From NCBI RefSeq assembly GCF_028641065.1, contig NC_073406.1, positions 13,888,001 to 13,952,000 on the forward strand: DNA of 64,000 nt, written 5' to 3'. A program made the position numbers and the translations under genes. Positions 21,552 through 63,528 of this stretch are shown in pieces (within the stretch, counting starts at the first letter, position 1; every line of letters begins with the position of its first letter). The DNA comes from Leucoraja erinacea (Eukaryota). Under the pieces are notes generated by a model. It saw only the letters and a program-made list of their open reading frames with translations. It made no database searches and was not told the DNA's origin.

Positions 21552-21885
21552 CCCTGCTTGAAATGGTATGAAACTGCATTTGAATGTGGTGGCCTTGAAC
21601 CCTGCATGGTATGAAACTGCGAATGTGGTGGCGCCCTGCATGAAATGGTATGAAGCTGCATTTGAATTTGGTGGCCTTGCACCCTGCTTGAAATGGTATT
21701 AAACTGCTCTTGAATTTTGGTGGCCTTGATCCCTGCTTGAAGTGGAATGAAACTGCACTTGAATTTGGCGGCCTTGCACCCTGCTGAAAGTGGTATGAAA
21801 CTGCACTTGAATTTGGTGGCCTTGCACCCTGCTTGAAATGGTAGGAAAATGGATTTGAATTTGGTGGCCTTGCTCCCTGCTTGGA
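21552..21885. repeat. ~48-bp minisatellite (~7 copies) inside the Helitron
   Basis: Unit ccctgcttgaaatggtatgaaactgcacttgaatttggtggccttgca. Confidence 0.9.
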
Positions 21886-22704
21886 ATTTCAAGGAATAGC
21901 CATGCGTCAACTGCCAGTCCACCAGCCGTGAGTGAGCTGCCAGCACATCAGGCTTGTGGGACTGAGCTGCCACCACAAAAACCCATACCCGCCCTCCAGA
22001 AAGCCCCCCCACTGACCACCAATATTGGAATTGGTGGAGAGGTGGAATATTGCGTCGGGGGACCAGCCCTCCTGTGTGAACATGGGACCCAACGGGTCCC
22101 ACTTAGTCTAGTATCTTTTAAAAGTCATAATTATATATCTTCTATTGCTTTCTTTGGCACGATATTATAGATACAGACTTCCCTTTGAATGAAAAAGTTG
22201 CCCCTGAGATTGCTCTTAAATCTCTCCCTTTATCTGAAGCCTTTGTCCTCTAGGTTTAGTATCCTCAACCCTGGGAAAAAGATTGTGAGCATTCACATTA
22301 TCCATGCCCCTCATGGTCTTCTACATCTCAATCAGCCTCTTACATTCCAAAGAAAAAAGTCCCAGCCTATCCAACCTTTCCCTATAACTTAAGCCTGGAA
22401 GTCCAGGTAACATTCTGGTGCATCTCATCTGCACCCTTTCCAACTTACTTGCTATAAAATGATGACAGCCGACGTGGTTCATTGATTTTATTGCTGTGTA
22501 TCTGAGGAAACAACTTTGGACAAATACATAGATAGGGAAAGTTTAGAGGGATATGGGCCAGGTTCAGGCATACAAGACAAGCTCAGATAGACACCTTGGT
22601 CCACATGGACAGGTTGGGCCTGTTTCCATGCGGTACAACTCTACGACTCCAAAAGAGTTTTGCCAGAGAAGTGCACTATCAAATATCTGAGCTGAATGCA
22701 ATAA

Positions 22705-23005: not shown

Positions 23006-23449
23006 TAGTGAGTAATAAGTAAGAACTCCTCAGAACCTGAGTGTACAAAATGCTTGGTGAAGTTGGGTTTCGAATAGTAGGTCCAAGTAATCATATCCAC
23101 GTGATGGCTCCTATTGACCCAGGAGATGGTGCAGAGGGAAGCAGGTACAATCAGATACAGTTTAAAACCTACCTGTTATTATTAGAGGCTGATCAAAAGT
23201 GCTTCATTCTATTGAGAAATTGCACAGAATTGTTTTTGCAGATATTCGAGGTTTAAGGAAAACATTTCACTGTGGGGAAATATGATGCATAGGCTTATTA
23301 TTGGCCAGCAGGAACTGTATTAAAATATTGCATATTGCTATTACCACAGGTTACACATTTTATGTAGATATTTTTCTTAATGCATTTTGTGGTTTGTTTG
23401 CATTTCTTGGGTCATAATTGTAAGTTTTCTTTTCCAGAATTTGAACAGA

Positions 23450-23467
23450 ATGGTTAAAGCATTTTTG
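23450..23467 (+). CDS. First coding exon (exon 23438-23467): ATG at 23450, MVKAFL
   Basis: Acceptor ttttcttttccag ends at 23437; agaATGG is a good Kozak context; phase-0 donor TTG|gtaagt. Confidence 0.75.
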
Positions 23468-26400
23468 GTAAGTTTATCAATGTTCAGTCAAGAGAGACAA
23501 AGGTAAAACGTTCATTTTCCATCTACTGTTTCTTCAGCAACTACTTACAAGGAGGAAACCTTTCCCCAAAGTTTTGGATTGGAGTCAAGAGGATTATAGG
23601 GGATAGGCACAAAATGCTGGAGTAAATCAGTGGGACAGGCAGCATCTCTGGAGGGAAGGAATGGGTGACGTTTTGGGTCGAGACTCTTCTTGTAGGGGAT
23701 GTCAGGAAGAACTCTTCCCACAAGAGCGTAGTTGAAAACTGGAATGCACTGCCTGGGATGGTGGTGGAGGCAGAGACACGTACAACAATTTAGAAGTATC
23801 TAAATGGACAGTTGAATCACTAAGGCACATGAACCAAGTGGTGGTAAACAGGATGAGTAGTTAGATAATTGATGGTTGGTGTGGATATGGTGAGCCAAAG
23901 TGTCTCTTGTTGTCTGACTCTACACTGCATGACAATAAATGTTGAGGACAAAGACAGGGTGCAATACCACGAGCCTACAGTAGAGTAACTTTTATTCAAC
24001 AATGATTGGGATAAGTAATTATTTCCCAGGTCACTTTTTTTGAAATGAATATCAATTATAATTTATTAAATTATTACTGGTGATATTCTCAAGATATCTG
24101 AAAGAGATTGGAAAATTGCAACAAATTATTATTGCAAAACAATGAGATGCATGGTCTGAAGAAGGGTTTCGGCCCGAAACGTTGCCTATTTCCTTCGCTC
24201 CATAGATGCTGCTGCACCCGCTGAGTTTCTCCAGCTTTTTTGTGTAACCTAATGAGATGCATGTCTGTTTGTAGTTTGTTTGGTTGTTTGTTTGTTGTCT
24301 TTTTGCACAAAGTCCACGAGCATTGCCACTTTTCATTTCACTGCACATCTCGTATGTGTATGTGACGAATAAACTTGACTTGACTTGACTTGATTTGGAT
24401 ACTTTCACTTGCATTTATTTACAAGACAGGTATATTGAGATGCAGCTTTACTAATATCTTTGTTTGATCCTAGGTATTTATAACTATTGTTAAACTCTGC
24501 ACCAACGGTAAGTATTACCGTTTGCATTGGATCATTTACAAACTTTTTAAAATTAATTCTGAAAACCATTCAAATGATAATTACAACAATTGTTTGCTTT
24601 TAGATTATGTTGCTGGATTTCGCAGTGAGTATATCCTTTCCATTCTAAATAGAACAAATTTTCACTCCAACATCAAAGCTCCATAATGCTTCAACCAGTG
24701 TGTCCTATATATTAATCAACTTAAAGAAATGCCACAACAGAATAACATATGATCACACACTACTTTCCTTATTTTGCATTTATTATCAATTTTGATTGTT
24801 AACTGGTTTTGCAAACCATCGATCGGGCTGGTCCAATATGAAATAGTTCAAAGGACCCCTATAGACACAAACTGGGACCTAACATGAGCTGGTAATTTAC
24901 TACACATGGAGTTGATTGATGACGACAGATGTGATTGTGTCTGGATCAGTTAGGAAGGTAAGAGGTAACATGAAGTGGACAAGAAAAATAAAGTGATGGG
25001 CAGAACAGGTAAACGGGTGGAGGGGGTTTGGAGCCAGTTTTCTTCTACAAGAGTTTGTGATGCGTTTGAAGGGAAATTTTGCTACGTGTAAGCTATGCCC
25101 GTCAACGTCTGCAGCTGTTCCGTCACAAAGCTTTCAGGTCTATCAGATCAAATGTTTACATTTAATTAACTTTTTCCTTTGTTTCTTCAGAAGCAGTCTG
25201 TTGCAAAACTGAGTGGTTTGACCGTGATGACCCATCAGGAAATGGAGATTATGAACTCCTCGCCGATCTGCAAAAGGAAAATCCCGGCCGCATCTGCACT
25301 AAACCAATTGCCTGTGAGGTAGAAACCACAAAAGGGATACCGGCCTCACAGACTGGAGAGAACTTCGCCAGGTACAACATATAGCCGGCCATATTATTGC
25401 ACTTCTATTATTTTATTCAAAGAGCATCAATAGTTTTAGCAACTACTTTATCTCACCTCTCTACATTCTGATCAACAGTTGCAACATTTCTACTGGGTTC
25501 TTTTGTGTGAACAAAAACCAACGTGATCGCGCCTGTCAAGATTACAGAATACGATTCACCTGCCCTGATTCATTTTGTGAGTATGATGCAATTGTAAAAC
25601 TTATTTTGTTAATATTAGCTCCAGAAGAAGATTATGACGCTGACATAATTGCAGCTCACCTATTACTCAGCCATCTAATTCCGGTCCCTATATTTGTTGA
25701 TTTTCTTAATTTCTAATAATTAATGTGTCCCGACCTTAAACATTCCTCCGTCTTTAACAGTCCCTTGGAGGGTGACTTGCCTCCTCTCTGCCGCTGTAGT
25801 GTCTGAAGTGGTTGACGAGGTCAACATGTGGTGTGCAGACTCTTCCATAAAAGGGGCAAATATTGGATGACATTGATTAATTCTGAGCATGTCTCAAATA
25901 ATAACTGAATTGTTTGTTTCTGCTTTTAGGTAGTGTTACCAAACCTCTTGGTGAGTATATCACTCCCATTATAAATATGGCAACATTGACATTGACAGCA
26001 ATATGAAAGCTCTTTCGAGCTTCAACCAGTATGTGTTAATGTTCGCTTCATAATAATCAAACTAAAAAACTGCGACATTGGACAATGGGGGCTTCAGTGA
26101 GACTGAACCTTAAGATTTGAAATGGTTATCATCTCATGTGTGCATGTTTCGGAGGAAATGCAACAGATTCACGGGAAAGATTGCAGAAATTGCATTTTTG
26201 CCACATGAGGAGAGATTGAATAGACCAGGGATACATAGACCTGCAGATGCTGGTTTACAAAATCAGACACAAAGTGCTGGTGAAGCTCCGCGGGTTAGGT
26301 CCCGCTACGACTGGGACTGTCGCCGGCAGTCGTCTGAAAAATTGCCGAAGTAGCACAGGGGCTTAACTTTTGTGTTTCTCCGGTCCTCTGGCAGCACATG

Positions 26401-29400
26401 TTCACCCGAGGATGGTAAATCACTTAAGTCATTTAATTATCCTGCCAAGCAAGATATCTGATTGCAAAAGGTGGGATTGACATGATGAGCACAGGAAAAC
26501 TAGACAGGAATTTCAGAGGCACTGAGACATCATGGGATTTGAGATGAGCTGGGAATTTAGAAAGTCGTGTTTTATTGATGAGAGAGTGGTGATATGCAGG
26601 GGTCAAGACCATTAGCAGTGGTGAGAGGAAACAGTCACCAATATCAGCAAATGTGGCTCAAGAAGAGGAATGTGATGTGATGGGCAGAACAGGGAATTAG
26701 CTGAAGGGAACTGGAGCTGGGTCTCATGTACATGAGTATGTGATGCATTCTGCATGGAAATATTGCTGCATGCAAGTTATGCCCAACATAGATAGCAGCA
26801 GTTTCATTATGTAGCTTTCAGATTTAACCGACCCAATGTTCACTTTGAATCTACTTTCTCTTTCTTCTCCTCAGTACGGTGTTGCAAAACTGTATGGTTT
26901 GACCGTGATGACCAATCAGGAAAAGGAGATTATGAACTCCTCGCCGATCTGCGAACAGAGAATCCCGGTCAGATCTGCAAGGATCCAATCGCCTGTGAGG
27001 TGGAGACAACGTCAGGGATTCCGGCCTCACAGACTGGAGAGAACATTGCCAGGTACAAGATATAGCCAGCCATAATATTGCACTTTTAATATTTCATTCA
27101 AAGTCCATCAGTAGATTTATCAACTACTTTATCACACCTCCCTACATTCTACTCAACAGTTGCGACGTTTCTACTGGATTCTTTTGTGTGAACAGCAACC
27201 AACGTGATGGCTCATGTCAAGATTACAGAATACGATTCACCTGCCCTGATTTTTATTGTGAGTATGAGGCAATTGTAAAATATCATTTGTGACCATTAGA
27301 TGTAGGAGTAGAACTGATGTTGATTCTGACTGTAATCGCAGCTTAACTTTTACTCGGCCACCCTCTTCCTATCTGTCTATTTGCTGATTTCCTTCCAATA
27401 GATCATTTGTCCCAACCTTAATCATTCCTCCTTCTGTGACTGTCCCATGGGATGGAGGGTGGCATGCCTCCTCTCTGCTACTGTGGGGTCTGAAATGGTT
27501 GACAAGGCCAATGTGTGTCGTGCAGACTTTTCCACATACTGTTTGGGGCAGATATTGGTTGACATTTATTAATTCTGAACATGTTTCCAATGACAACTAA
27601 CTGAATTGTTTGTTTCTGCTTTTAGGTGATGTTACCACACCTCCAGGTGAGTAATCCAAGGGTCTCGACCCCAAGCGTCACCTATTCCATCTGTCCAGAT
27701 ATGCTGCCTGTCCCGCTGAATTATTCCAGCATTTTATGTCTATCTTCAGTGTAAATTAGCATTTGCATTTCCTTCCTACATAATTAACTGAATTCATTGT
27801 TTTAGGCAATGTTACCATCTGGTGAATATTAGCCTAACATTATAAATAGTATAACAAATAGAGCAATATACTCTGCATCTCCATCCCCCACTAGGAAAGC
27901 CCTCCGTTTCTTCCTCGACTGCAGAACCATCCAATTTCCCTCCACCAACACTCTACTCCATCTAGCGGATCTGGTCCTCACCCTTAATAACTTCTCCTTC
28001 GACTACTCCCAGTTCCTCCAGGTCCAAGACATAGCTAAGGGCACCCGTATGGGCCCCAGCTATGCCTGCCTTTGTAGGGTATGTTGAACAATCCCTGTTC
28101 TAGGCATACACTGGCCCTATCCCCAAACTCTACCTCTCTTACATTGGTGCTACCTCCTGCGCCCATGCAGAACTCATGGACTTCATCACCAATTGCCATC
28201 CTGCACTCAAATTTACTTGGACCATCTCCGACAACTCCCTCCCCTTTCTTGATCTCACCGTCACCATCACAGGAAATAGACTGACATCTATGACAAACCC
28301 ACTGACTCCCACAACTACCTCGACTCAGTGTTTCCACTTTGAAGGAAATTACCTGAAATTCGGGGAATTCCGGTTGTCTTTGGGTAATTTTAGGGAAATT
28401 AAATAATATTTCGGGAACTTTCCAGGCTCGGTAAGCCTTCCCCAACTCCGCATGTGTAACTGCCGTCCCAACTATGCACGCGCGGAATCCGGGCCCACTG
28501 CACACGCGCGGAGAGACTCCAAAGGGTCCAATCAGGCCCGCGGGATGATTTGCGGAAAAAAAGTATCTACTTGTATATTTACCACCATCCGCGCCTGTGC
28601 AGTTTGGGGAGGCCCGTCAGCTGCGTCACAATTGACAATGGCGGCGGTGACGCGGTAGGGATGCGGTCTCCACACGCATGCGCAGTGGGCCCGAGCTCCT
28701 AGCGTGCGCAGTTGGGGCGGCAGTCGCACATGCGCAATTGGGGAAGCGTTACCGGGCCTTCCACAGAGCCCATTCCCTCCGCAACCACCTGGTTAATTCA
28801 TTACTTCCCACCCAAACCTCCCCCTCCCCTGGTACCTTCCCCTGCAACCACAGAAGATGCAACACCTGTCCATATACTTCCTCCCTCGACTCTGTCCAGG
28901 GACCACAACGTTCATTTCAGGTTAGGCAGAGGTTCAATTGCACCTCTTCCAACCTCATTTACTGTTTCCATTGGTCAAGATGTGGACTCTTATTCATCGG
29001 CGAGACAAAACGTAGACTGGTCGTTTCGCTGAACACCTTCGCTTAGTCAACCTGAACCTGATCTCCTGGTTGCTAAACACTTTAATTCTTCTTCCTGTTC
29101 CCACACAGACCTTTCTGTCCTAGGTCTCCTCCATTGTCAGAGTGAGGCTAAACACAAATTGGAGGAACAGCATCTCATATCTCCCTTGGGCAACTTACAG
29201 CCCAGTGGTATGAATTTTGATTTCCCTAACTTCAGGTATCCCTGGCATTCCCTTTCTCTCTATCCCTCCCCCACCCAAGACTCACAAGCTTCACCTAACA
29301 AACAGCTAACTAGGCCTGTTTCCTTTATCATCATTACTGTAGCGGAAGATTTTTCAAATCTGCCGCTACAGGAAATTAACTCCCTAGCCACTAATTGGGT

Positions 29401-32400
29401 GAGACGGGATAAGGGGAATATCTTCGGTACGCATGCAAGCTGCCTCAGAGACCTTCAGAGCTTCTCCTTTCATAAAGCATCAGCACACAGTCTTTTAATG
29501 AATATTTTTTGCATATCTTTCATTCATTGTTCTTTATCTCTCTACATTATCGTCTATATCTCTCCTTTCCCTTATCCCTAACCAGTCTGAAGAAGGGTCT
29601 TGACCTGAAACATCACCCACTCTTTCTCTCCAGACATGCTACCTGTCCCACTGCTCTAGCTGTCAATCTTCAGTTTCAACCAACAACTGCGGTTCATTCC
29701 TACACAGAGCGATTTCAAAGTTCTTAAGAGCTTCTCCAAATGTGTTTTAATGGCCACCTCATAATAATCAAGTTAAAAATCTGCCATTACAGATTATGGA
29801 AGCTTCAGTGAGACTGAACCTCGAGTGTTGTCTATCATCTTATCAAGGAACATAACTTGTGCTAGCCGTAGAGGGGAATATCACTGGGAGGTTGCAGAAA
29901 TTGCAATTTTCCACATGAGGAGAGTTTGAAAAGACTTGGGTTATAAAGAATTGCAGATGCTGCTTTACAAAATAATTTCTGCAGCATCAGTGCATCAGGC
30001 ATCATCTCGGGATAACATGGCTGGGTGATGATTCGGGTCGGAACCTTTCTTCAGACAATAACTGTTTTGTCACGATTACAGAATACGATTCACCTGCCCC
30101 GATTCCTTTTGCGATTATGAGGCAATTGTATAACTTTATTTGTTAATGTTAGCTACGGAATTAGGAGTGAAGCTGATGATAACTCTGACTGTAATCACAG
30201 CTCACCCTTTACCAGGCTATCTCTTCCTATCTCTCTATTAGCTGATTTCCTTACTTTCCTATAATAAATTTGACCCAATCTTAAACATTCCTTTCTTGAC
30301 TGTCCCTTGGGGTGGAGGGTTGCATGCCTCCTCTCTGCTACTCTGGGGTCTGAAGAGCTTGATGAGACCAATGTGTGGTGTGCTGACTCTTTCACAGAAG
30401 GGGCAGATATTGAATGACATTGACTAATTCTGAACATGTTTCCAATCATCCAGTAATTAACTGCATTGTTTGTTTCTGCTTTTAGGTGATGTTACCATAC
30501 CTCCAAGTGAGTATTGGCCTCACATTATAAACAGTGCCACAAATACAGCAATTTCAAATCTCTCTAAGAGCTTCCTCAAATTAGTTTTTATGTCCGCTTC
30601 GCAATAATTAAGTTAAAAAAACTGCTACAAAAATGGGGGCTTCAATGAGACTGAACCTCGAGAGTTGTCTGCAGTTATCGTCTTATCGAGGAACATAAAT
30701 TGTGCCTACCATGGTGGGAAGTACCACTGGCAAGGTTACAGAAATTGCAATTTACCACACGAGGAAAGGTTGAAAAGACTAGGGATACAAAGAACTACAG
30801 ACGGTGTTCTACAAAAAAAGAAACAAAATGCTGGAGCAACTCAGTGGCTGACGCATGATATCTGGAGAACAGGGAATGGTGATGTTTCAGGTCAGGACCC
30901 TTTTTTAGACCTGATTTGTTTTGTCTAGAGATTTGTGGAATGGGAAGTTATCTCATTCCATGAGGACTCCGTGCACAGGCACCGGTGTCTCAGAATAGAA
31001 TGAAGATAATTTGGGACTGAAACAGGACTCATTTCTTCACCAATAAGCTGTTGAATGTATAGAATCCTCCATTCCAGAGAGCAATGGAGGTTCAATCAGA
31101 AGAGATTATTCATTTACTGCACATTGAAGGATACGTTGATAGTGTTGAACAATGAGTCTGTGGTAGAAGATTGCCAATTAATTAAATGAATGATGGAGCA
31201 GGTTCGTAGGGCCAGCCAAATCTCTGAAGCCTGCTCCTAATTCTTAGGTTCTTATCTTCTATTCCAATATATGTTTTCGAAGGCAACATTAGTACCCTCA
31301 TCAACTTTATGTATGATCTGTGAAATCATTGTAAAGACCTGTCATTTTGGGGATTATCTTTGCCCCTCTCTTGTACAATGGAGTAACATCTGCGTTTCCC
31401 CGGTGCTCTGGCTGCACTTCATCAGTGACCTTGATCAATGGCGGAGCAGGTTTGAAGGCCACATCTATGACTCCTGCTTCTAATTCTCACTTTCTCATCT
31501 TATATTCTGATCTACATTTTAGAAGGAACTAGAGTACCCGTATTAACTTCCTGAGTGATGTTGGTTCATCATAGAGTCTGAACATTTTTTCTTGTTTCTA
31601 TATTGCTGCTGCAAGTAACAATGGCATTGTTCTATCAGGGACATACTGTATGACAATAAAACACTCTTGTCTCTGGACTCTTGCCAGTTCCACAACAAAC
31701 CTTTCTGGTTTGTAAGACCCAAAGTAAACATTGTTACTTCATCCGAAAGGCCGGTCATTTTTGGGATCATCTTAGCCCCTCTCTTGAACAAAGGAGTAAC
31801 TTCTGCGTTTCTCCGGATCTCTGACAGAAATTGTTCACGAGAGGAAAGTGACTGACTTAAGATTCATTTGAGTATTCTGCCAGCCATGATTGAGGATTGC
31901 AGGAGGTGGGATTGACACGAGGAGGACCAGGAAAACTAGACATGGATTTAGTAGGAATTCTGGGACTTGGTATCATGCTGGTAATTTACAAAGTTGGGAT
32001 TTTATTGAGGAGAGAGTGATGGCGATTGATGTGAAGGGGTCAGGACCAAATTGGAGCAACAGAACCTCATATTTTGCTTGCTCAGCTTACAACCCAGCAT
32101 TATGAATATTCATTATTTTAAATTCAAGTAACCCTTGCATTCCCTCTCTCTCCAGCCCTCACCTGTCCTAATCATCCTGCTAGTTTTACTGTTTGTATCA
32201 TCTTGTTATCCCCTTCTCCAAAGCCAACAATGGACCATGTGGGTTCTTCGGCCATTAGTGCAGGCTCTGATTTGTTCTGTACCTTTTTCATACCTCTAAT
32301 TTCTCTTTCCTCCAACTGTCAGTCTGAAGAAGGGTCTCATCATGAAACATCACCTATTCCTTTTCTCTAGAGATGTTACCTCCACAGCTAATTTGCTCCA

Positions 32401-53400: not shown

Positions 53401-56400
53401 TACAAACTACAGCAGATATGGATTACAAAATGCTGGAATAACAGAACGTATCAGGCATCATCTCCGAGATCATGAATAGGTCCTGTTTCGATTCGGGATC
53501 CATCTTCAGACTAGAACCCTTTTCTCTAGGGATTGTAGAATGGGAAGTCATCTCTGACTCCTGCTCCTAATTCTTACTTTCTTTTCTGATATTCTGATTT
53601 ATTTGTTAGAAGGTAACTAGAGTACTCATAAAAACTTTGTGTGGTGTTAATTCATCGTAAAGGCCTGTCATTTCTGTGATCATCTTTTCCCCTCTCTTGA
53701 ACAAAGGAGTAACTTCTGCGTTTCTCCGGTCCTCTGACATCACTTGTTCACTTGAGGAAAGTGACTCACATAAGAGTAATTTGAGTATTCTGCCAGGCAT
53801 GATTCAGGATTGCAGAATGTGGGATTGTCACAAGGAGGACCAGGAAAACTAGACATGGATTTCGTAGGAATTCTGGGACATGGTACCAGGCTGGTAATTT
53901 ATAAAGTTGGGATTTTATTGAGGAGAGAGGGATGGCGATTGATGTGAAGGGGTCAGGACCAATTGCAACAGTGAGAGGAAACCGTCACCAACATCAGCAA
54001 ATATGGGGCAAGAAGAAATAAGTGAAGTGATGGGCAGAACAGTGAACAAGGTGGAGGGAGCTGGAACTAGGTCTCATGTACTTGAGTATATGATGCGTTC
54101 TGAGGAGAAATATTGTTCATGTCAGTTGTGCCCAACGGTTAGCAAATCGATCAGGTCTCTCTGTCTCGACATGAAAGGTAACCTATTCCTTACCTCTAGA
54201 GATGCTACCTGGAGCTAATTTGCTACATAATTTTGTGTCAATCTGTCAGACCCAATGTTTACTTTCAATCTACTTTCTCTTTCTGCTCTTCAGTAGGGAA
54301 TTGCAAAACTGCGTGGTTTGACCGTGATAACCCATCAGGAAATGGAGATTATGAAACGATCCCCGATCTGCGAACTGAGAATCCCGGTCAGATCTGCATG
54401 GATCCAATCGCCTGTGAGGTGGAGACAACGTCAGGGATTCCGGCCTCACAGACTGGAGAGAACATTGCCAGGTACAAAATAGAGCCGGCCATAATATTGC
54501 ACTTTTATTATTTCATTCAAAGAGCATCAGTAGTTTTATCAACTACTTTATCACACCTCCCTACATTCTACTCAACAGTTGCAACGTTTCTACTGGATTC
54601 TTTTGTGTGAACAGCAACCAACGTGATGGCTCATGTCAAGATTACAGAATACGATTCACCTGCCCTGATTTCTTTTGTGAGTATTAGGCGATTGTAAAAT
54701 ATCATTTGTGAATATTAGCTACTGAATTATGAGTGGAGCTGAGTATTACACAGACTGTAATAACTACTCACCTTTTGCTTAGCCACCCTCTTCATGTCCC
54801 TCTGTTTGCTGATTCACAGACTTTCCAATAGTAATTTCATCCCCACCTTAAACACCCCTCCTTCTTTGACAGTCCCTTTAGATGGAGGGTGGCATGTCTC
54901 TTCTCTAGTTCTACTAGTTCTGTTGTGGTTGATGAGGCTAACGTGTGGTGTGCAGACTCTTGCACAGATGGGGCAGATATTTGCTGACAATCTTTAAATC
55001 TGAACATGTTTCAAATGATAATTAACTGAATTGTTTGTTTCTCCTTTTAGGTGGTGTAACCGAACCTCCTGGTGAGTATATCGATCCCATTATAAAGCGG
55101 GTCAGTCAGCATCTCTGACGAAAAGGAATAGATTGTAATGAGGAGACCAGTCTTCAGTCTGAGAGTCAGGGGAGAGGGAATCTAGCGGTATGAAAACGTA
55201 CAGAACAAAGCAGAGCTGGCACCGATGGCCAAAGAGCCCACAATAATAAACCTTATCGGACGACTAAGGTGGAGAAGAGATGGAGAGAGTTGGAAGGCAA
55301 AGATTACATGAAATTAGAGAAATTAATGTGCAAATATTGGGTTGTAAGCTACCCAAACAAAATATGAAGTGCTGTTACTCCAATTTGCATAAGGCCTTAC
55401 TCTGACAGTGGAGGTGGTGCAGGACAGAAAAGCACTCTGACAGTGGAGACAGACTCGTTCTGTCCTGGGTCACCTCCAATGTCAGAGTTCGGCCACATGT
55501 AAATTGAAACAGAACCTCATATTTTGCTTGCTCAGCTTACAACCCAGCATTATGAATATTGATTATTTTAAATTCAAGTAACCCTTGCATTCTCTCTCTC
55601 TCCATCCCTCACTTGCCCCATACATCCTGCAAGTTTTGCTTTTTGTATCCCTTCCTTATCACCTCCTCCAAAGCCAACAATGAACCATGTGGGCTCTTTG
55701 ACCATTAGTGCAGGTTCTGAATTGTTCTGAACCTTTCCATACCCTAAATTTCTCAGTCCCCTGACTCTCTGTCTGAAGACGGATCTCAACATGAAAGGTC
55801 CCCTATTCCTTACCTACAAAGGTGCTACCTGGAGCTAATTTGCTCCATAATTTTGTGTCAATCTGTCAGACCCAATGTTCACCTTCAATCTACTTTCTCT
55901 TTCTGCTCTTCAGTAGGGAATTGCACAACTCCATGGTTTGACCGTGATAACCCATCAGGATTTGGAGATTATGAAACGTTCCCCCATCTGCGAAATGAGA
56001 ATCCCGGTCAGATCTGCACGGAACCAATCGCCTGTGAGGTAGAGACAACGTCAGGGATTCCGGCCTCACAGACTGGAGAGAACATTGCCAGGTACTAAAT
56101 AGAGCCGGCCATAATATTGCACTTTTATTATTTCATTCAAAGAGCATCAGTAGTTTTATCAACTACTTTATCACATCTCCCTACATTCTACTCAACAGTT
56201 GCAACGTTTCTACTGGATTCTTTTGTATGAACAGCAACCAACGTGATGGCTCATGTCAAGATTACAGAATACGATTCACCTGCCCTGATTCCTTTTGTGA
56301 GTATGAGGCGATTGTAAAATATCATTTGTGAATATTAGCTACTGAATTATGAGTGGAGCTGATTATTACACAGACTGTAATAACTACTCACCTTTTGCTT

Positions 56401-59400
56401 AGCCACCCTCTTCCTGTCCCTCTGTTTGCTGATTTCCAGACTTTCCAATAGTAAATTCATCCCCACCTTAAACACTCCTCCTTCTTTGACAGTTCCTTTA
56501 GATGGAGGGTGGCATGTCTCTTCTCTGGTTCTACTAGTTCTGTTGTGGATGATGAGGTAAACATGTGGTGTGCAGACTTTTGCACAGATGGGGCAGATAT
56601 CTGCTGATAATCATTAAATCTCAACATGTTTCAAATGATAATTAACTGAATTGTTTTGTTTCTTCTTTTAGGTGGTGTTACCGAACCTCCTGGTGAGTAT
56701 ATCGCTCCCATGATAAAGAGGGCAATGTTAACAGTAATATGAAAGCTCTTATGAACTTCATCCAGTGTGTTTAAATGTTCTCTACATATAAACAAGTTAA
56801 AAAACTGCCACAACAGATTATAGGCGCTTCAGTGCGACTGAACCTCAAGAGTTGCTTGTAGTTATCATATTGTTAAGGAAACAAATTGTGTCCATGCCAT
56901 GGAGGGAATGCAAAACAGATTGACGGGATAGGTAACAGAAATTGTGATTTAGCCACATGAGAAGAAATTGCAAGTATTAGTAATACAAAGTACAGTAGAT
57001 ACTGGATTACAAAATGAGAAGTAAAGTGCTGGAGTAAGGTCCTGATTCGAAACATAGAAACATAGAATTAGGTGCAGAAGTAGGCCATTCGCCCTTTCGA
57101 GCCTGCACCGCATTCAATATGATCATCATGGCTGATCATCCAACTCAGTATCCCGTACCTGCCTTCTCTCCATACCCCCAGATCCCTTTAGCCACAAGGG
57201 CCACATCTAACTTGGGATTGAAATATAGCCAATGAACTGTGCCTCAACTCAGAAGGTGGTGAGAGTTCCAGAGATTCACCACTCTCTGCATGAAAAAATT
57301 TCTTCTCATCTCGGTGATTAAAGGATTTCCCTTTTATCCTTAAGCTGTGACCCCTTGTCCTGGAATTCCCTAACATCGGGAACAATCTTCCTGCATCTAG
57401 CCTGTCCAACCCCTTAATAATTTTGTAAGTTTCTATAAGATCCCCTCTCAATCTCCTAAATTCTAGAGAGTATAAACCAAGTCTATCCAGTCTCTTCTTC
57501 ATAAGACAGTCCTGACATCCCAGGAATCAGTCTGGTGAACCTTCTCTGCACTCCCTCTATGGGAATAATGTCCTTCCTCAGATTTGGAGTACGCAATACT
57601 CCAGGTGTGGTCTCACCAAGACCCTGTACAACTGCAGTAGAACCTCTCTGCTCCTATACGCAAATCCTTTAGCAGTGAAAGCTAACATACCATTCGCTTA
57701 TCTTTACTGCCTGCTGCCTGCTGCACCTGCAATGACTGGTGTACCATGAGACCCAGGTCTCGCTGCATCTCCCCCTTTCCCAATCGGCCACCATTTAGAT
57801 AATAGTCTGCTTTCCTGTTTTTGCCACCAAAATTTATAACCTCACATTTATCCACATTATACTGCATCTGCCAAACATTTGCCCACTCACCCAGCCTATC
57901 CAAGTCACCCTGCAGTCTCCTAGCATCCTCCTCACAGCTAACACTGCCCCCCAGCTTAGTGTCATCCGCAAACTTGGAGATATTGCCTTCAATTCCCTCA
58001 TCCAGATCATTAATATATATTGTAAATAGCTGGGGTCCCAGTACTGAGCCTTGGGGTACCCCACTAGTCACTGCCTGCCATTGTGAAAAGGACCCGTTTA
58101 CTCCTACTCTTTGCTTCCTGTAGGAGTAAAAGGGTCCTTTTCACAATGGCAGGCAGTGACTAGTGGGGTACCCCAAGGCTCAGTACTGGGACCCCAGCTA
58201 TTTACATGTCAGGCATCATCTCTGGGATAATGAATAGGTGATATTTCGAGTCGGGACCCTTCTTCAGACTAGAACATGTTTCTCCAGTGATTGTAGAATG
58301 GAAAGTCATCTCTGTCCCTTTGGACTCCAGGTGCATGCACCACTGTTTCAGCATGAGAGGAAGATATTTTGGGATTGAAATATGATTAGTTGTTTCACTC
58401 AGAAGGTGGTGTATTTTTGCCATTCTTCATTGCAGAGCGCATTCGAAGACATTCAGAAGTGATTGTTAGTTTTCTGGACGTTAAAGGATATGTTGATAGT
58501 GCTGGAATATGGACCTGAAATAGAAGATTGCTAGTTCAAATGGCCACATGTCTGACTCCTGCTCCTAATTCTTTCTTTCTTTTCTGATATTCTGATTGAT
58601 GTGTTAGAAGGCAACTACAGTACCCAACTTCATGTGTGGTGTTAATTCACCGTAAAGGCCTGTCATTTTTCTGATCATCTTTGCCCCTCTCTTGAACAAA
58701 GGAGTAACCCTTGCATTCCCTCTCTCTCCATCCCTCACCTGCTGCAATCATCCTACTAGTTTTACTGTTTGTATCCCCTCGTTATTACCTCCTCCAAAGT
58801 CAACAATGAACCAATGATAATCATTAAATCTCAACATGTTTCAAATGATAATTAACTGAATTGTTTTGTTTCTCCTTTTAGGTGGTGTTACCGAACCTCC
58901 TGGTGAGTATATCGCTCCCATGATAAAGAGGGCAATGTTAACAGCAATATGAAAGCTCTTATGAACTTCATCCAGGGTGTTTAAATGTCCGCTACATAAT
59001 AAACAAGTTAAAAAACTGCCACAACAGATTATATGCGCTTCAATGCAACTGAACCTCAAGAGTTGCTTGTAGTTATCATCTTGTTAAGGAAACAAAATGT
59101 GTCCATACCTCCTCCAAAGTCAACAATGAACCATGTGGGCTCTTTGGCCATTAGTGCAGGCTCTGATTTGTTCTGTACATTTTCAAACCTCTAATTTCTC
59201 TCTCACCGGTCTCTCAGTTTGAGGAAGGGTCTCGACATGAACCGTCACCTATTTCTTTCCTCTAGAGATGCGACCTGCCGAGCTAATTTGCTGCAACATG
59301 TTGTGTCAATCCATCAGACCCAATGTTCACTTTGAATCTACTTTCTCTTTCTGCTCTTCAGTGGGGAATTGCAAAACTGCGTGGTTTGACCGTGATAACC

Positions 59401-62400
59401 CATCAGGAAATGGAGATTATGAAATCTTCCCCAATCTGCGAACTGAGAATCCTGGTCAGATCTGCATGGATCCAATCGCCTGTGAGGTGGAGACAACGTC
59501 AGGGATTCCGGCCTCACAGACTGGAGAGAACATTGCCAGGTACAAAATAGAGCCAGCCATATTATAGCACTTTTATTATTTCATTCAAAGTGCATCAGTA
59601 GTTTTATCAACAACTTTATCATATGTCCCTACATTCTACTCAACAGTTGCAACGTTATTACTGGATTCTTTTGTGTGAACAGCAACCAACGTGATCGCGC
59701 ATGTCAAGATTACAGAATACGATTCACCTGCCCTGATTCCTTTTGTAAGTATGAGACAATTGTAAAATATCATTTGTGAATATTAGCTACTGAATTATGA
59801 GTGGAGCTGAGTATTACACTGACTGCAATAACTACTCACCTTTTGCTTAGCCACCCTCTTCATGTCCCTCTGTTTGCTGATTTCCAGACTTTCCAATAGT
59901 AATTTCATCCCCACCTTAAACAGCCCCCCCCTTCTTTAACAGTCCCTTTGGATGGAGTGTGGCATGTTTCTTCTCTGGTTCTTTGAGTTCTGATGTGGTT
60001 GATGAGGCTAACGTGTGGTGTGCAGACTCTTGCACAGATGGGGCAGATATCTGCTGACAATCATTAAATCTGAACATGTTTCAAATGATAATTAACTGAA
60101 TTGTTTGTTTCTCCTTTTAGGTGGTGTTACCGAACCTCCTGGTGAGTATATCGATCCCATTATAAAGAGGGCAATGTTAACAGTAATATGAAAGCTCTTA
60201 TGAGTTTCATACAGTATGTTTTAATGTCCGCTACATAATAACTAAGTTAAAACACTGGCATAACAGATTATAGGCGCTTCAGTGCGACTGAACCTCAAGA
60301 GTTGCTTGTAGTTATCAGCTTATTAAGGAAACAAAATGTGTCCATGTCATGGAGTGAATGCAAAACAGATTCATGGGAAAGGTGGCAGAAATTGTGATTT
60401 AGCCACATGAGAAGAAATTGCAAAGACTAGGAATACAAACTACAGCAGATATGGATTACAAAATGCTGGAATAACAGAACGTATCAGGCATCATCTCCGA
60501 GATCATGAATAGGTCCTGTTTCGATTCGGGACCCATCTTCAGACTAGAACCTTTTTCTCTAGGGATTGTAGAATGGGAAGTCGTCTCTGACTCCTGCTCC
60601 TAATTCTAACTTTCTTTTCTGATATTCTGATTTATTTGTTAGAAGGTAACTAGAGTACTCATAAAAACTTTGTGTGGTGTTAATTCATCGTAAAGGCCTG
60701 TCATTTCTGTGATCATCTTTTCCCCTCTCTTGAACAAAGGAGTAACTTCTGCGTTTCTCCGGTCCTCTGACATCACTTGTTCACTTGAGGAAAGTGACTC
60801 ACGTAAGAGTAATTTGAGTATTCTGCCAGGCATGATTCAGGATTGCAGAATGTGGGATTGTCACGAGGAGGACCAGGAAAACTAGACATGGATTTCGTAG
60901 GAATTCTGGGACATGGTACCAGGCTGGTAATTTATAAAGTTTGGATTTTATTGAGGAGAGAGGGATGGCGATTGATGTGAAGGGGTCAGGACCAATGGCA
61001 GCAGTGAGAGGAAACAGTCACCAACATCAGCAAATATGGGGCAAGAAGAAATAAGTGAAGTGATGTGCAGAACAGTGAACAAGGTGGAGGGAGCTGGAAC
61101 TAGGTCTCATGTACTTGAGTATATGATGCGTTCTGATGAGAAATATTGTTCATGTAAGTTGTGCCCAACGGTTAGCAAATCGATCAGGTCTCTCTGTCTC
61201 GACATGAAAGGTAACCTATTCCTTACCTCTAGAGATGCTACCTGGAGCTAATTTGCTCCATAATTTTGTGTCAATCTGTCAGACCCAATGTTTACTTTCA
61301 ATCTACTTTCTCTTTCTGCTCTTCTTCAGTAGGGAATTGCAAAACTGCATGGTTTGACCGTGATAACCCATCAGGAAATGGAGATTATGAAATCTTCCCC
61401 AATCTGCGAACTGAGAATCCCGGTCAGATCTGCACGGATCCAATCGCCTGTGAGGTGGAGACAACGTCAGGGATTCAGGCCTCACAGACTGGAGAGAACA
61501 TTGCCAGGTACAAAATATAGCCGGCCATAATATTGAACTTTTCTTATTTCATTCAAAGAGCATCAGTAGTTTTATCAACTACTTTATCACATCTCCCTAC
61601 ATTCTACTCAACAGTTGCAACGTTTCTACTGGATTCTTTTGTCTGAACATCAACCAACGTGATGGCTCATGTCAAGATTACAGAATACGATTCACCTGCC
61701 CTGATTCCTTTTGTGAGTAAGCGGCGATTGTAAACTATCATTTGTGAATATTAGTTACTGAATTATGAATGGAGCTGATTATAACACAGACTGTAATAAC
61801 TACTCACCTTTTGCTTAGCCACCCTCTTACTGTCCCTCTGTTTGCTGATTTCCAGACTTTCCAATAGTATATTCATCCCCATTTTAAACACCCCTCCTTC
61901 TTTGACAGATGGAGTGTGGCATGTCTCTTCTCTAGTTCTACAAGTTCTGTTGTGGTTGATGAGGTCAACATTTGGTGTGCAGATTTTGCACAGATGGGGC
62001 AGATATCTGCCGATAATCATTAAATCTGAACATGTTTCAAATAGTAATTAACTGAATTGTTTGTTTCTCCTTTTAGGTGGTGTTACCGAACCTCCTGGTG
62101 AGTATATCGCTCCCATTGTAAAGAGGGCAATGTTAACAGTAATATGAAAGCTCTTATGAACTTCATCCAGTATGTTTTAATGTCCGCTACATAATAACTA
62201 AGTTAAAAACTGTCACAACAGATTATAGGCGCTTCAGTGCGACTGAACCTCAAGAGTTGCTTGTAGTTATCATCTTGTTAAGGAAACAAAATGTGTCCAT
62301 GCCATGGAGGGAATGTAAAAACGATTCACGGGTTTGGGAACAGAAATTGTGATTTAGCCACATGAGAAGAAATTGCAAGGACTAGGAATACAAAGTACAG

Positions 62401-63528
62401 TAGATACTGGATTACAAAATAAGAAATAAAGTGCTGGAGTAACTGATCATGTCAGGCATCATCTCTGGGATCATGAATAGGTGATATTTCGAGTCGGGAC
62501 CCATCTTCAGACTAGAACATTTTTCTCCAGGGATTGTAGAATGGAAAGTCATCTCTGTCCCTTTGGACTCCAGGTGCATGCACCACTGTCTCAGCATGAG
62601 AGGAAGATATTTTGGGATTGAAATACGATTAGTTGTTTCACTCAGAAGGTGGTGTATTTTTGTCATTCTTCATTCCAGAGAGCATTCGAGGACATTCAGA
62701 AGTGATTGGTAGTTTTCTGGACGTTAAAGGATATGTAGATTGTGCTGGAAAATGGACCTGAAATAGAAGATTGCTAGTTCAAATGGCCATATGTCTGACT
62801 CCTGTTCCTAATTCTTACTTTCTTTTCTGATATTCAGATTTATGTGTTAGAAGGCAACTACAGTACCCAACTTCATGTGTGGTGTTAATTCATCGTAAAG
62901 GCTTGTCATTTTTGTGATCATCTTTGCCCCTCTCTTGAACAAAGGAGTAACCCTTGCATTCCCTCTCTCTCCATCCCTCACCTGCTGCAATCATCCTACT
63001 AGTTTTACTGTTTGTATCCCCTCGTTATTACCTCCTGCAAAGTCAACAATGAACCATGTGGGCTCTTTGACCATTAGTGCAGGCTCTGATTTGTTCTGTA
63101 CATTTTCAAACCTCTAATTTCTCTCTCACCGGTCTCTCAGTTTGAGGAAGGGTCTCGACATGAACCGTCACCTATTTCTTAGCTACTGAATTATGAATGG
63201 AGCTGATTATTACACAGACTGTAACAACTACTCACCTTTTGCTTAGCCACCCTCTTCCTGTCCCTCTGTTTGCTGACTTTCCAATAGTAAATTCATCCCC
63301 ATCTTAAACACTCCTCCTTCTTTGACAGTTCCTTTAGATGGAGGGTGGCATGTCTCTTCTCTGGTTCTACTAGTTCTGTTGTGGTTGATGAGGCTAACGT
63401 GTGGTCTGCAGACTTTTGCACAGATGGGGCAGATATCTGCTGATAATCATTAAATCTCAACATGTTTCAAATGATAATTAACTGAATTGTTTTGTTTCTC
63501 CTTTTAGGTGGTGTTACCGAACCTCCTG
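23450..63528 (+). CDS. Multi-exon gene for a secreted tandem Mucin2_WxxW/CysD-like domain protein (CILP N-terminal/mucin CysD-like); at least 16 domains; 3' end beyond the window
   Basis: Hand-spliced with GT-AG boundaries and compatible phases throughout. Leader exons are 23450-23467, 24474-24507 and 24604-24624, followed by 16 cassettes of exon A (178 nt; 181 in unit 1), exon B (98 nt) and a microexon (21 nt). Consensus unit: [99 protein letters not shown]. The motifs WFDRDxPSGxGDYE, GxxCxNxxQ and CxDYxIRFxC are recognised from the Mucin2_WxxW family. Confidence 0.9.
24154..24250 (+). mobile_element. ~97-bp Penelope-derived short element with a 13-bp target-site duplication
   Basis: aatgagatgcatg flanks both sides (24141-24153 and 24251-24263); the body resembles the Penelope end at ~29585-29655. 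Confidence 0.75.
24474..24507 (+). CDS. Leader exon [11 protein letters not shown] (hydrophobic signal-peptide core)
   Basis: Branch-like ctaat at 24451, acceptor tag at 24471-24473, donor G|gtaagt; 34 nt, phase 0 to 1. Confidence 0.75.
24604..24624 (+). CDS. 21-nt microexon (D)YVAGFR, paralogous to the array linker microexons
   Basis: Acceptor tgtttgcttttag and donor gtgagtatatc; the flanks resemble those of the later 21-nt exons; phase 1-1. Confidence 0.75.
25191..25950 (+). CDS. CysD-like cassette 1 (exons 25191-25371, 25479-25576, 25930-25950)
   Basis: [100 protein letters not shown]; AG/GT ends. Confidence 0.88.
26875..27646 (+). CDS. CysD-like cassette 2 (exons 26875-27052, 27160-27257, 27626-27646)
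   Basis: [38 protein letters not shown].../CDVSTGFFC...CPDFY/CDVTTPP; AG/GT ends. Confidence 0.88.
27865..29660 (+). mobile_element. Degenerate Penelope-like retroelement (RT and GIY-YIG fragments) with nested inserts
   Basis: RT region ..[11 protein letters not shown] and [26 protein letters not shown]. Endonuclease [16 protein letters not shown]...[11 protein letters not shown]...[13 protein letters not shown], then EEQHLI..LG.LQP.GMN. Confidence 0.85.
30070..30506 (+). pseudogene. Decayed cassette: 3' remnant of exon B with a mutated donor, plus an intact orphan linker microexon at 30486-30506
   Basis: gattacagaatacgattcacctgccccgattcctttt is followed by gcgatt instead of gtgagt. The microexon gtgatgttaccatacctccaa keeps AG/GT. 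Confidence 0.75.
32470..33246 (+). CDS. CysD-like cassette 3 (exons 32470-32647, 32755-32852, 33226-33246)
   Basis: 178/98/21-nt exons, open frame, AG/GT ends. Confidence 0.88.
34437..35214 (+). CDS. CysD-like cassette 4, A type (exons 34437-34614, 34722-34819, 35194-35214)
   Basis: 178/98/21-nt exons; ICMDP variant. Confidence 0.88.
36389..37166 (+). CDS. CysD-like cassette 5, B type (exons 36389-36566, 36674-36771, 37146-37166)
   Basis: 178/98/21-nt exons; ICTDP variant; linker CGVTGPP. Confidence 0.88.
38357..39130 (+). CDS. CysD-like cassette 6, A type (exons 38357-38534, 38642-38739, 39110-39130)
   Basis: 178/98/21-nt exons, open frame. Confidence 0.88.
39648..40738 (-). mobile_element. 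Young 5'-truncated CR1 LINE inserted in an array intron
   Basis: ORF 39922-40554: [47 protein letters not shown]. (aaacatag)n tail; ctgcca(g)gcat is repeated at both junctions. Confidence 0.92.
41238..42015 (+). CDS. CysD-like cassette 7, B type (exons 41238-41415, 41523-41620, 41995-42015)
   Basis: 178/98/21-nt exons, open frame. Confidence 0.88.
43206..43983 (+). CDS. CysD-like cassette 8, A type (exons 43206-43383, 43491-43588, 43963-43983)
   Basis: 178/98/21-nt exons, open frame. Confidence 0.88.
45158..45936 (+). CDS. CysD-like cassette 9, B type (exons 45158-45335, 45443-45540, 45916-45936)
   Basis: 178/98/21-nt exons, open frame. Confidence 0.88.
47211..47231 (+). CDS. Orphan linker microexon (GVTEPP); the domain exons of this unit are deleted
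   Basis: Intact AG/GT; the upstream junction cctatttctt|agctactg at ~46883 skips exons A and B. Confidence 0.6.
48422..49199 (+). CDS. CysD-like cassette 10, A type (exons 48422-48599, 48707-48804, 49179-49199)
   Basis: 178/98/21-nt exons, open frame. Confidence 0.88.
50374..51147 (+). CDS. CysD-like cassette 11, B type (exons 50374-50551, 50659-50756, 51127-51147)
   Basis: 178/98/21-nt exons, open frame. Confidence 0.88.
52338..53115 (+). CDS. CysD-like cassette 12, A type (exons 52338-52515, 52623-52720, 53095-53115)
   Basis: 178/98/21-nt exons, open frame. Confidence 0.88.
54294..55071 (+). CDS. CysD-like cassette 13 (exons 54294-54471, 54579-54676, 55051-55071)
   Basis: 178/98/21-nt exons; variant DYETIPDL. 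Confidence 0.88.
55095..55800. mobile_element. Head-to-head decayed Penelope 3'-end fragments in the intron before cassette 14
   Basis: ctctgacagtggaggtg..caggacagaa (55401-55430) is inverted relative to ttctgtcctgg..cacctccaatgtcagag (55458-55487); the + arm resembles 29110-29280. Confidence 0.55.
55914..56692 (+). CDS. CysD-like cassette 14, divergent (exons 55914-56091, 56199-56296, 56672-56692)
   Basis: [31 protein letters not shown]...; AG/GT ends. Confidence 0.88.
57049..58204 (-). mobile_element. Young 5'-truncated CR1 LINE with an inverted 5' segment, in an array intron
   Basis: ORF 57682-58071: [32 protein letters not shown]. 58120-58206 is an inverted copy of 58021-58107. Confidence 0.9.
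58882..58902 (+). CDS. Orphan linker microexon (GVTEPP)
   Basis: Intact AG/GT inside a ~290-bp segment bracketed by a 28-bp direct repeat. Confidence 0.5.
59362..60141 (+). CDS. CysD-like cassette 15, A type (exons 59362-59539, 59647-59744, 60121-60141)
   Basis: 178/98/21-nt exons; CNVIT variant has lost the sequon. Confidence 0.87.
61330..62097 (+). CDS. CysD-like cassette 16, B type (exons 61330-61507, 61615-61712, 62077-62097)
   Basis: 178/98/21-nt exons, open frame. Confidence 0.87.
63508..63528 (+). CDS. Orphan linker microexon (GVTEPP); domain exons deleted
   Basis: Same deletion junction (cctatttctt|agctactg, ~63180) as at ~46883. Confidence 0.6.

What the first reader, a model, noticed from the sequence alone, without database searches (positions are those of the whole stretch)
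24604..63528. Three-exon, phase-1 symmetric module with a dedicated 21-nt linker microexon
Seen: each domain is split into exon A (phase 1 to 2) and exon B (phase 2 to 1), and a 21-nt microexon (phase 1 to 1) supplies the linker. The eighth Cys codon is split across the exon B/microexon junction (T|GT), so the microexon is needed to complete the Cys set. A+B is 276 nt and the microexon is 21 nt, both multiples of 3, so modules can be gained, lost or skipped in frame. In mammalian gel-forming mucins, CysD domains mostly sit within large central exons. Inference: the architecture permits combinatorial length isoforms and free copy-number change.
Basis: partly seen in the sequence, partly recalled or inferred. 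Interest (0 to 1): 0.7.

Follow-up and report, generated by a model that had tools for sequence, protein, structure and literature searches.

The report
Borrowed leader microexon in skate mucin
In a skate gene for a known fish mucin-like protein made of 30 repeated cysteine-rich domains, the first 20 joints carry a predicted 21-base extra exon whose flanking DNA matches the gene's own leader exon; shark versions lack the insert, and in stingrays it likely grew into a longer sugar-carrying spacer.

Summary
The pattern is real. Between 24604 and 63528 lie 16 A exons, 16 B exons and 21 21-nt microexons, all GT-AG, which join into one open frame. The gene is the skate member of the known CysD-only fish 'Mucin-5AC' family (si:dkey-205h13.2; a lateral-line cupula gene in zebrafish). 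It continues beyond the window to 30 domains, about 2,941 aa in 87 coding exons, with one assembly gap. The microexon is not a basic part of the module. The last nine joints, and 145 of 145 joints in 11 sharks, lack it, and in the skate's nine Cys8 is completed across B|A. In the 5' block, skipping it loses Cys8 at 20 of 20 joints, so it is likely constitutive, not a splicing switch. Its flanks match the leader spacer exon, so it was likely captured by a batoid duplication; 7 of 7 batoids carry the insert. Deletion of A+B leaves in-frame orphan microexons, and ray gene models with long Thr/Ser/Pro spacers read into the same intron. RNA reads confirm only the A-B splice (6 reads). Verdict: known gene, ordinary phase-1 symmetry, modestly new evolutionary story.

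The parts
23438..23467 (+). Leader exon 1 (ATG at 23450, phase 0 donor), predicted
   Evidence: matches N-terminus of Amblyraja model P0014
24474..24507 (+). Leader exon 2, 34 nt, rest of the hydrophobic signal-like leader, phase 0-1
   Evidence: matches P0014 and Pristis P0007
24604..24624 (+). Leader spacer microexon (21 nt, phase 1-1); its flanks are homologous to all linker microexons tested; likely their source
   Evidence: local score 94-197 vs shuffle maximum 80-101 in 5 of 5 comparisons
25191..25950 (+). Module 1: A 25191-25371, B 25479-25576, microexon 25930-25950; extra Cys before Cys1
26875..27646 (+). Module 2: A 26875-27052, B 27160-27257, microexon 27626-27646; extra Cys before Cys1
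30068..30110 (+). Remnant of an exon B (3' part only, donor decayed to GC) left by a deletion
30486..30506 (+). Orphan microexon 1 (deletion breakpoint 30067/30068)
32470..33246 (+). Module 3: A 32470-32647, B 32755-32852, microexon 33226-33246
34437..35214 (+). Module 4: A 34437-34614, B 34722-34819, microexon 35194-35214; used as the read-laying reference
36389..37166 (+). Module 5: A 36389-36566, B 36674-36771, microexon 37146-37166
38357..39130 (+). Module 6: A 38357-38534, B 38642-38739, microexon 39110-39130
41238..42015 (+). Module 7: A 41238-41415, B 41523-41620, microexon 41995-42015
43206..43983 (+). Module 8: A 43206-43383, B 43491-43588, microexon 43963-43983
45158..45936 (+). Module 9: A 45158-45335, B 45443-45540, microexon 45916-45936
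47211..47231 (+). Orphan microexon 2 (breakpoint 46882/46883, A+B deleted)
48422..49199 (+). Module 10: A 48422-48599, B 48707-48804, microexon 49179-49199
50374..51147 (+). Module 11: A 50374-50551, B 50659-50756, microexon 51127-51147
52338..53115 (+). Module 12: A 52338-52515, B 52623-52720, microexon 53095-53115
54294..55071 (+). Module 13: A 54294-54471, B 54579-54676, microexon 55051-55071
55914..56692 (+). Module 14: A 55914-56091, B 56199-56296, microexon 56672-56692 (variant type that fits the RNA reads best, with module 19)
58882..58902 (+). Orphan microexon 3 (breakpoint 58813/58815)
59362..60141 (+). Module 15: A 59362-59539, B 59647-59744, microexon 60121-60141
61330..62097 (+). 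Module 16: A 61330-61507, B 61615-61712, microexon 62077-62097
63508..63528 (+). Orphan microexon 4 (breakpoint 63179/63180, identical to that of orphan 2, so one deletion copied). The gene continues past the window: modules 17-21 (L001; 178-nt A, four more microexons) and modules 22-30 (L001-L004; 175-nt A, no microexon), stop at window-equivalent 99499

Best explanation
This is the skate gene of the known CysD-only fish 'Mucin-5AC' family, 30 WxxW/CysD domains in a row, and its 21-nt linker exon is likely a constitutive add-on that batoids copied from the gene's own leader spacer exon. Shown: the ancestral-type unit is two exons (A' 175 nt + B 98 nt = 91 aa) and builds Cys8 across B|A' at all nine 3' joints. 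The 5' units are microexon + A (178) + B (98) = 99 aa, with Cys8 across B|microexon. Inferred: a duplication whose upstream break lay just before the leader spacer exon copied spacer+A+B. Unequal crossing-over then expanded and homogenised that unit in skates, and deletions of A+B left in-frame orphan microexons. Inferred: Cys8 pairs with Cys1 of the same domain, so at least one microexon must be kept at each 5' joint. The result would be a secreted beads-on-a-string protein whose 5' beads are spaced by an 8- or 15-residue Pro/Thr/Gly linker and whose 3' beads are close-packed; by orthology it is likely a structural part of a sensory gel such as the neuromast cupula.
For: Exon map and open frame: 87 exons, 2,941 aa, all GT-AG. 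No microexon candidate in 9 of 9 3' introns against 20 of 20 5' introns. All 9 A' exons start GT or GC, giving a Cys codon. 0 of 145 linkers in 11 shark species have the insert; 7 of 7 batoid species do, 5' of the compact joints wherever both occur. Leader and linker microexon flanks are homologous in 5 of 5 comparisons above the shuffle maximum. Shark leaders carry a 7-residue spacer at the same place. All 24 genome-wide DNA matches to the microexon lie in this locus. Cys1 and Cys8 are lost together in 12 terminal domains and one first domain, and both are present in 207 of 223 domains. Family: Pfam PF13330 only above cut-off; 49% identity to zebrafish XP_689574; the Amblyraja model XP_032903886, 98% identical to the 3' part here, is in Table 1 of PMC11765562; the fold matches MUC5B and MUC2 CysD.
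Against: No read spanning a microexon junction was listed. Only 10 reads of X12 and 23 of X6 were laid, several of them intronic. The insert in other species comes from database gene models, which can copy one another, and their genomic DNA could not be fetched. The leader microexon has a weak acceptor (-0.3 bits) and only about 10 of 21 bases match the linker copies. Three shark first domains lack Cys1 but keep Cys8 (a leader Cys four residues upstream may substitute). No disulfide map came out of the AlphaFold runs, and the long model was low-confidence (pLDDT 57.8). Skate tissue expression is untested, and similar tandem-CysD proteins occur in lizards, which lack a lateral line (recalled).
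Confidence: 0.72

Rival explanations
1. The microexon is a regulated alternative exon, and the architecture yields combinatorial length isoforms.
For: All parts are frame-preserving. Nine of 9 shark isoform pairs differ by whole multiples of 91 aa. At four joints a second microexon could be skipped at no cost to Cys8.
Against: Skipping a single microexon loses Cys8 at 20 of 20 joints. The microexon has the strongest combined splice sites in the unit (13-17 bits). The shark isoforms occur without any microexon and are database models in repeats, where mis-mapped reads can fake skipping. No skipping joint was listed, though depth was too low to exclude it.
Confidence: 0.2
2. The 21-nt segment is not an exon but passenger intron DNA copied with the 2-kb repeat, and B joins A directly.
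For: Copies are not independent; no junction read at the microexon.
Against: A direct join would lose a Cys kept in 193 of 193 internal domains. Splice sites are intact in 25 of 25 copies, and identity is at coding level rather than intron level. An in-frame insert at this place appears in 7 batoid species.
Confidence: 0.04
3. The three-exon unit is ancestral, and the microexon was lost in the 3' block, in sharks and in bony fishes.
For: A few bony-fish and lizard linkers are longer than the shark 10 (11-15 residues), and the zebrafish gene has reached exon 8 by its second domain (PMC11765562), so other small exons may exist there.
Against: It needs repeated loss in all sharks (0 of 145) and most bony fishes. 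The 3' introns hold no trace of the microexon or its flanks (best hits 10-11 nt, E 0.68 or worse). The flanks match the leader exon instead.
Confidence: 0.08

Closest known systems
Fish CysD-only 'Mucin-5AC' (zebrafish muc5AC = si:dkey-205h13.2; Ma et al. 2025, PMC11765562, whole text read)
   Same: Leader plus tandem CysD domains and no VWD, PTS or transmembrane part; 49% identity to zebrafish; the paper's 27-domain skate entry XP_032903886 is 98% identical to the 3' part of this gene.
   Different: The paper does not describe the exon structure of skate or shark genes, the microexon, or the two joint types. Domains here have 8 Cys and no first Trp. There are 30 domains here against 6 in zebrafish.
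[quoted passage not shown]
   Same: Same fold (Foldseek 8oer E 6e-5, 6tm2, 8ov0, 6tm6) and the same Pfam family.
   Different: No VWD/C8/TIL or cystine knot, no large PTS region (23% P+T+S), 8 rather than 10 Cys, WxxW motif absent in 144 of 144 cartilaginous-fish domains, and the domain is split by a phase-2 intron.
CILP-like and other single WxxW-domain genes in the same genome (L010, L011, L012)
   Same: Domain bounded by phase-1 introns (both ends in L010 and L012; donor side only found in L011).
   Different: One domain rather than an array. The CILP-like domains are single exons, and the L010 domain has a phase-0 intron at a different place. The names CILP and CEMIP are recalled from sequence motifs, not tested.
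Chicken Muc13 (Lang et al. 2006, PMC1552070, passages read) and de novo mucins (Pajic et al. 2022, PMC9417175, abstract read)
   Same: Muc13 has a PTS region built from many small exons, one repeat each, with alternative splicing proposed; Pajic et al. describe mucin regions arising by gain of exonic repeats.
   Different: Here the seed is likely a leader spacer exon that became welded to a domain Cys codon, and short-to-long states are visible across batoids.
Oikosin 1 of Oikopleura (as described in PMC3195396, passages read)
   Same: Secreted structural protein of tandem CysD domains (13) in a gel-like matrix.
   Different: Tunicate protein with WxxW kept in 11 repeats; orthology not tested.

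Membership tests
Fish CysD-only Mucin-5AC (si:dkey-205h13.2) | Tandem PF13330 domains as the only domain type | tested here: met
   11 stretches in P0004, 2 in P0010, 27 in P0019, no other family over cut-off; database models were scanned, not the joined 30-domain product
Fish CysD-only Mucin-5AC (si:dkey-205h13.2) | Sequence closeness to listed members | tested here: met
   49% to zebrafish XP_689574; 98% to XP_032903886 of the paper's Table 1; domain tree groups skate, shark, zebrafish, caecilian and gecko rows apart from CILP-like rows at 95/88, although four long-branch gel-mucin rows fall inside that group
Fish CysD-only Mucin-5AC (si:dkey-205h13.2) | N-terminal signal peptide | tested here: inconclusive
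   a hydrophobic 17-residue leader is predicted and matches Amblyraja and Pristis models; no signal-peptide predictor was run and no read covered these exons
Fish CysD-only Mucin-5AC (si:dkey-205h13.2) | Expression in neuromast support cells and role in the cupula | not testable with these tools
   RNA runs are coded and of unknown tissue; only low sense-strand expression was seen
Fish CysD-only Mucin-5AC (si:dkey-205h13.2) | Conserved gene neighbourhood | tested here: inconclusive
   a C1q-like neighbour suggested by a fused catshark model was not found in the 154 kb held
Gel-forming mucins (MUC2/MUC5AC/MUC5B) | VWD-C8-TIL assemblies and C-terminal cystine knot | tested here: not met
   the predicted product is leader plus 30 CysD domains ending at the last domain
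Gel-forming mucins (MUC2/MUC5AC/MUC5B) | Large PTS region | tested here: not met
   23.3% P+T+S overall; inserts of only 8 or 15 residues
Gel-forming mucins (MUC2/MUC5AC/MUC5B) | CysD fold | tested here: met
   AlphaFold model pLDDT 70; top 8 Foldseek hits are mucin CysD structures
Gel-forming mucins (MUC2/MUC5AC/MUC5B) | Ten cysteines and WxxW motif per CysD | tested here: not met
   8 Cys per internal domain; first Trp absent in 144 of 144 domains of 11 cartilaginous-fish proteins
Regulated (tissue-specific) microexons | 27 nt or shorter and frame-preserving (definition recalled) | tested here: met
   21 nt, phase 1-1, 25 of 25
Regulated (tissue-specific) microexons | Differential inclusion between tissues | tested here: inconclusive
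   too few reads; no joint at the microexon listed in four runs
Regulated (tissue-specific) microexons | UGC motif upstream of the acceptor (motif recalled) | tested here: not met
   present in 4 of 25 copies, all at the diverged 5' end

The most novel reading that the evidence does not exclude
A mucin PTS domain caught being born: a 21-nt leader exon, captured into the CysD repeat in the batoid ancestor and locked in by a split Cys codon, multiplied by losing its A+B partners and grew into the Thr/Ser/Pro-rich spacers of stingrays and devil rays, so that this CysD-only gene converged on the CysD-PTS alternation of gel-forming mucins and retuned the spacing of a sensory gel.
Probability: 0.45. 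Interest if true: 0.62.

Novelty: new variant of a known kind. Interest (0 to 1): 0.4.

Why it matters
The gene family and symmetric phase-1 modules are known, so the finding as worded is ordinary. What is new within the searches made is the history. One gene holds both the old two-exon joint and the new three-exon joint, the donor exon is identifiable, and batoids show graded linker inserts: +8 and +15 residues in skates, +8 and +22 in sawfish, +9 and +25 in Mobula, and a long PTS run in Hypanus. That gives a testable series for how PTS spacers arise between CysD domains, and a natural experiment on how bead spacing affects a CysD gel. Practically, the database splits this gene into at least five short models with read-through ends, and the true copy number is unsettled by an assembly gap.

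Tried and rejected
RNA search: no RNA holder listed, which is no evidence either way. First read-laying (runs X8, X12, X15, X6): swamped by interspersed repeats, no informative joint shown (220 joints were not displayed), and no reads on the leader exons or module 1's A exon. Second laying: X13 gave 0 reads and X14 gave 1, so neither is a test. AlphaFold on the 1,037-aa model was low-confidence and did not separate the two linker types; neither model gave disulfide pairs. Domain tree: my L010 row was out of frame in its second half, so that row is void (correct translation); gel-mucin rows sat on a long branch inside the family and the skate 5' modules were unresolved, so the tree was used only loosely. 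The synteny test with a C1q-like gene found nothing. The first leader translation had a one-base slip, corrected. The first small-exon regex was too strict and was replaced by the scored scan, whose base frequencies are approximate and recalled. Literature: 'CysD'+'microexon' 0 papers; 'Mucin2_WxxW'+'shark' 1 paper, Lang 2016, whose passages do not cover this gene; 'dkey-205h13.2' 2 papers, one with no main-text passage; passages of PMC7599080, PMC11912381 and PMC8379299 gave no Cys1-Cys8 map and no link of this protein to ampullary gel; some searches were seen as listings. No supplements were opened; those of PMC11765562 and Fig. S8 of PMC7599080 may bear on exon structure and disulfides. Earlier scan findings: none. 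No complex prediction was run, since no binding is claimed.

Full report
Observation. The window is G000:C30:13888001-13952000, + strand. Scanning with one unit as probe finds 16 A exons, 16 B exons and 20 linker-type 21-nt microexons, plus a diverged 21-nt exon at 24604. A is 178 nt (the first is 181, or 178 from a tandem acceptor), B is 98 nt, and the A-B intron is 107 nt in all 16. All ends are AG/GT, and the joined exons read 1,619 codons without a stop. The order shows four places with two microexons in a row. Because the units are tandem copies (96.8% mean identity of A+B among modules 3-20), their agreement is not independent evidence. Better support: microexon identity among copies is 97.3% against 92.6-93.3% for the neighbouring introns, and the microexons are the top-scoring in-frame small-exon candidates in 20 of 20 B-to-A introns of the 5' block (13-17 bits; weights approximate and recalled).

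The whole gene. Two predicted leader exons (23438-23467, 24474-24507) and the 24604 microexon precede module 1 and match the N-termini of Amblyraja and Pristis models. Downstream loci add five more modules of the same type and nine diverged ones. In all there are 87 coding exons, 30 domains and 2,941 aa, all GT-AG. A 100-N gap at window-equivalent 67095-67194 lies inside the array, so the count is provisional. Database proteins named Leucoraja erinacea sit on a contig of the same length as C30 and cover the gene in at least five fragments. Pfam finds only PF13330 above cut-off in the models scanned. A two-domain AlphaFold model (pLDDT 70.1) matches MUC5B, MUC2 and MUC5AC CysD structures as its top 8 hits. 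The protein is 49% identical to zebrafish XP_689574. Ma et al. 2025 (PMC11765562, whole text read) define this family as CysD-only fish 'Mucin-5AC', expressed in zebrafish neuromast support cells and needed for full cupula length. Their Table 1 includes XP_032903886, which is 98% identical to the 3' part of this gene. The gene is therefore a known kind. It is not a gel-forming mucin: no VWD, 23% P+T+S, 8 Cys, and the first Trp of WxxW is absent in 144 of 144 domains examined.

The microexon is an add-on. Modules 22-30 have a 175-nt A exon that starts GT or GC in 9 of 9 cases, so B|A' itself gives TGT or TGC. The same scan finds no candidate small exon in 9 of 9 of these introns and no trace of the microexon's flanks. 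In 11 shark species (one model each; one further Mustelus isoform left out) 140 of 145 linkers are the compact 10 residues and 5 are 12; none has the insert. All 7 batoid species seen have it. Skates show 18 and 25 residues, Narcine 18, Pristis 18 and 32, Mobula 19 and 35, and Hypanus 20 plus a long PTS run; the long joints lie 5' of the compact ones wherever both occur. These are database models, not transcripts I could check. Bony-fish and tetrapod linkers are 11-15 where the pattern caught both ends.

Origin (inferred). The DNA around the leader microexon aligns with the DNA around linker microexons in 5 of 5 comparisons, above the best of 100 shuffles, from about 50-120 nt upstream to 180-390 nt downstream. 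Sharks have a 7-residue spacer at the leader position but no linker insert. All 24 genome-wide matches to a linker microexon fall in this locus. The simplest history is a duplication of spacer+A+B in the batoid line, followed by unequal crossing-over in skates. The four orphans come from three deletions that removed A and all or most of B; two share one breakpoint. Four of 18 long linkers in the Amblyraja model are double and one in Pristis is triple. The translation of the intron behind the skate leader microexon matches read-through stretches in the Mobula and Hypanus PTS-rich models (scores 64 and 54; next best 32, median 19 among 155 proteins). This suggests that their PTS units end at the same donor and intron. 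It is the basis of the novel case and needs their genomic exon maps.

How it works (inferred). Cys1 and Cys8 are both present in 207 of 223 domains and both absent in 13 (12 terminal domains and one first domain). Three shark first domains lack Cys1 only. This points to a Cys1-Cys8 bond within each domain; it was not read from a structure. Skipping the microexon gives Leu at 20 of 20 joints, or Trp or a stop through the distal tandem acceptor at 7 of them. One microexon per 5' joint is therefore likely obligatory, while orphans could be skipped freely. The product would be a secreted chain of CysD beads, spaced in the N-terminal two-thirds and close-packed at the C-terminus. MUC2 CysD forms non-covalent dimers (PMC3195396, passages), which offers a cross-linking route; it is untested here.

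RNA. In run X12, 6 of 10 laid reads span A to B (107 nt, GT..AG) on the expected strand. No joint at the microexon reached the listing threshold, and some reads of X12 and X6 are intronic. X13 and X14 gave 0 and 1 reads. Microexon inclusion is thus unverified. The read variants fit modules 14 and 19 rather than the majority type. Nine of 9 shark isoform pairs differ by multiples of 91 aa, which fits module skipping but does not involve a microexon and may be a mapping artefact.

Two CILP-like WxxW domains in this genome are single exons. A third gene has a phase-0 intron at another place. Ten gel-mucin-type CysDs examined are uninterrupted and begin at a phase-1 acceptor, five of them within short phase 1-1 exons. 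Phase-1 modularity is thus the norm for this domain here, and only the internal phase-2 intron and the microexon are particular. Small repeated PTS exons with proposed alternative splicing are known from chicken Muc13 (PMC1552070, passages), and de novo mucin repeats from Pajic et al. (abstract). Searches for CysD with microexon, Mucin2_WxxW with shark, and the gene name found no description of this exon structure; subscription journals are largely not covered.

Verdict. Observation confirmed, interpretation partly supported. This is a new variant of a known kind, interest 0.4. The most novel reading, a PTS domain seeded by a captured leader microexon, has probability 0.45 and would merit about 0.6.

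Noticed in passing
window 15285-15367: TATA-like box followed about 80 nt later by a strong donor; a possible non-coding first exon of this gene, 8 kb upstream of the ATG exon. Not covered by the read-laying.
   Followed up: no
window 25191-25371 and 26875-27052: Modules 1 and 2 carry an extra Cys just before Cys1 (also in the first domain of the Amblyraja model); several shark leaders have a spare Cys too. Candidates for inter-chain bonds.
   Followed up: partly
L001 (window-equivalent 67095-67194): 100-N assembly gap inside the homogenised array; the database splits the gene into at least five short models, several ending by reading through a microexon donor.
   Followed up: yes
window 34395-35260: RNA read variants fit modules 14 and 19, a minority type in this assembly but common in the Amblyraja model. 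This may reflect 3' bias or array turnover between animals; unexplained.
   Followed up: partly
proteins P0075, P0085, P0108, P0127, P0119: Tandem CysD-only proteins of this type occur in gecko, wall lizard, caecilian, axolotl and coelacanth, so the family is not limited to fishes and may have roles beyond the lateral line.
   Followed up: partly
window 45158, 50374, 54294, 55914, 61330 and L001 modules 19 and 21: Tandem (NAGNAG) acceptors at seven A exons; the distal site gives a 175-nt exon like the 3' type.
   Followed up: partly
L004 5411-5514 (window-equivalent 99411-99514): The last B exon has its stop before Cys8 yet keeps an intact donor 10 nt further on; polyadenylation-like signals start about 750 nt downstream.
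   Followed up: no
L013, L014, L019 (C22 11.8-13.7 Mb): Arrays of gel-mucin-type CysD plus short PTS encoded as repeated single phase 1-1 exons about 1.8-4.3 kb apart, unlike the large central exon of mammals.
   Followed up: partly
window 27880-29500, 39650-40740, 57040-58200; 28424-28759: Repeat insertions in microexon-to-A introns, including an inverted repeat pair (28424-28517 / 28666-28759) around a GC-rich stretch; none disrupts an exon.
   Followed up: no
window 20800-21180 and 21634-21887: 47-nt and 48-nt tandem repeats upstream of the coding exons.
   Followed up: no
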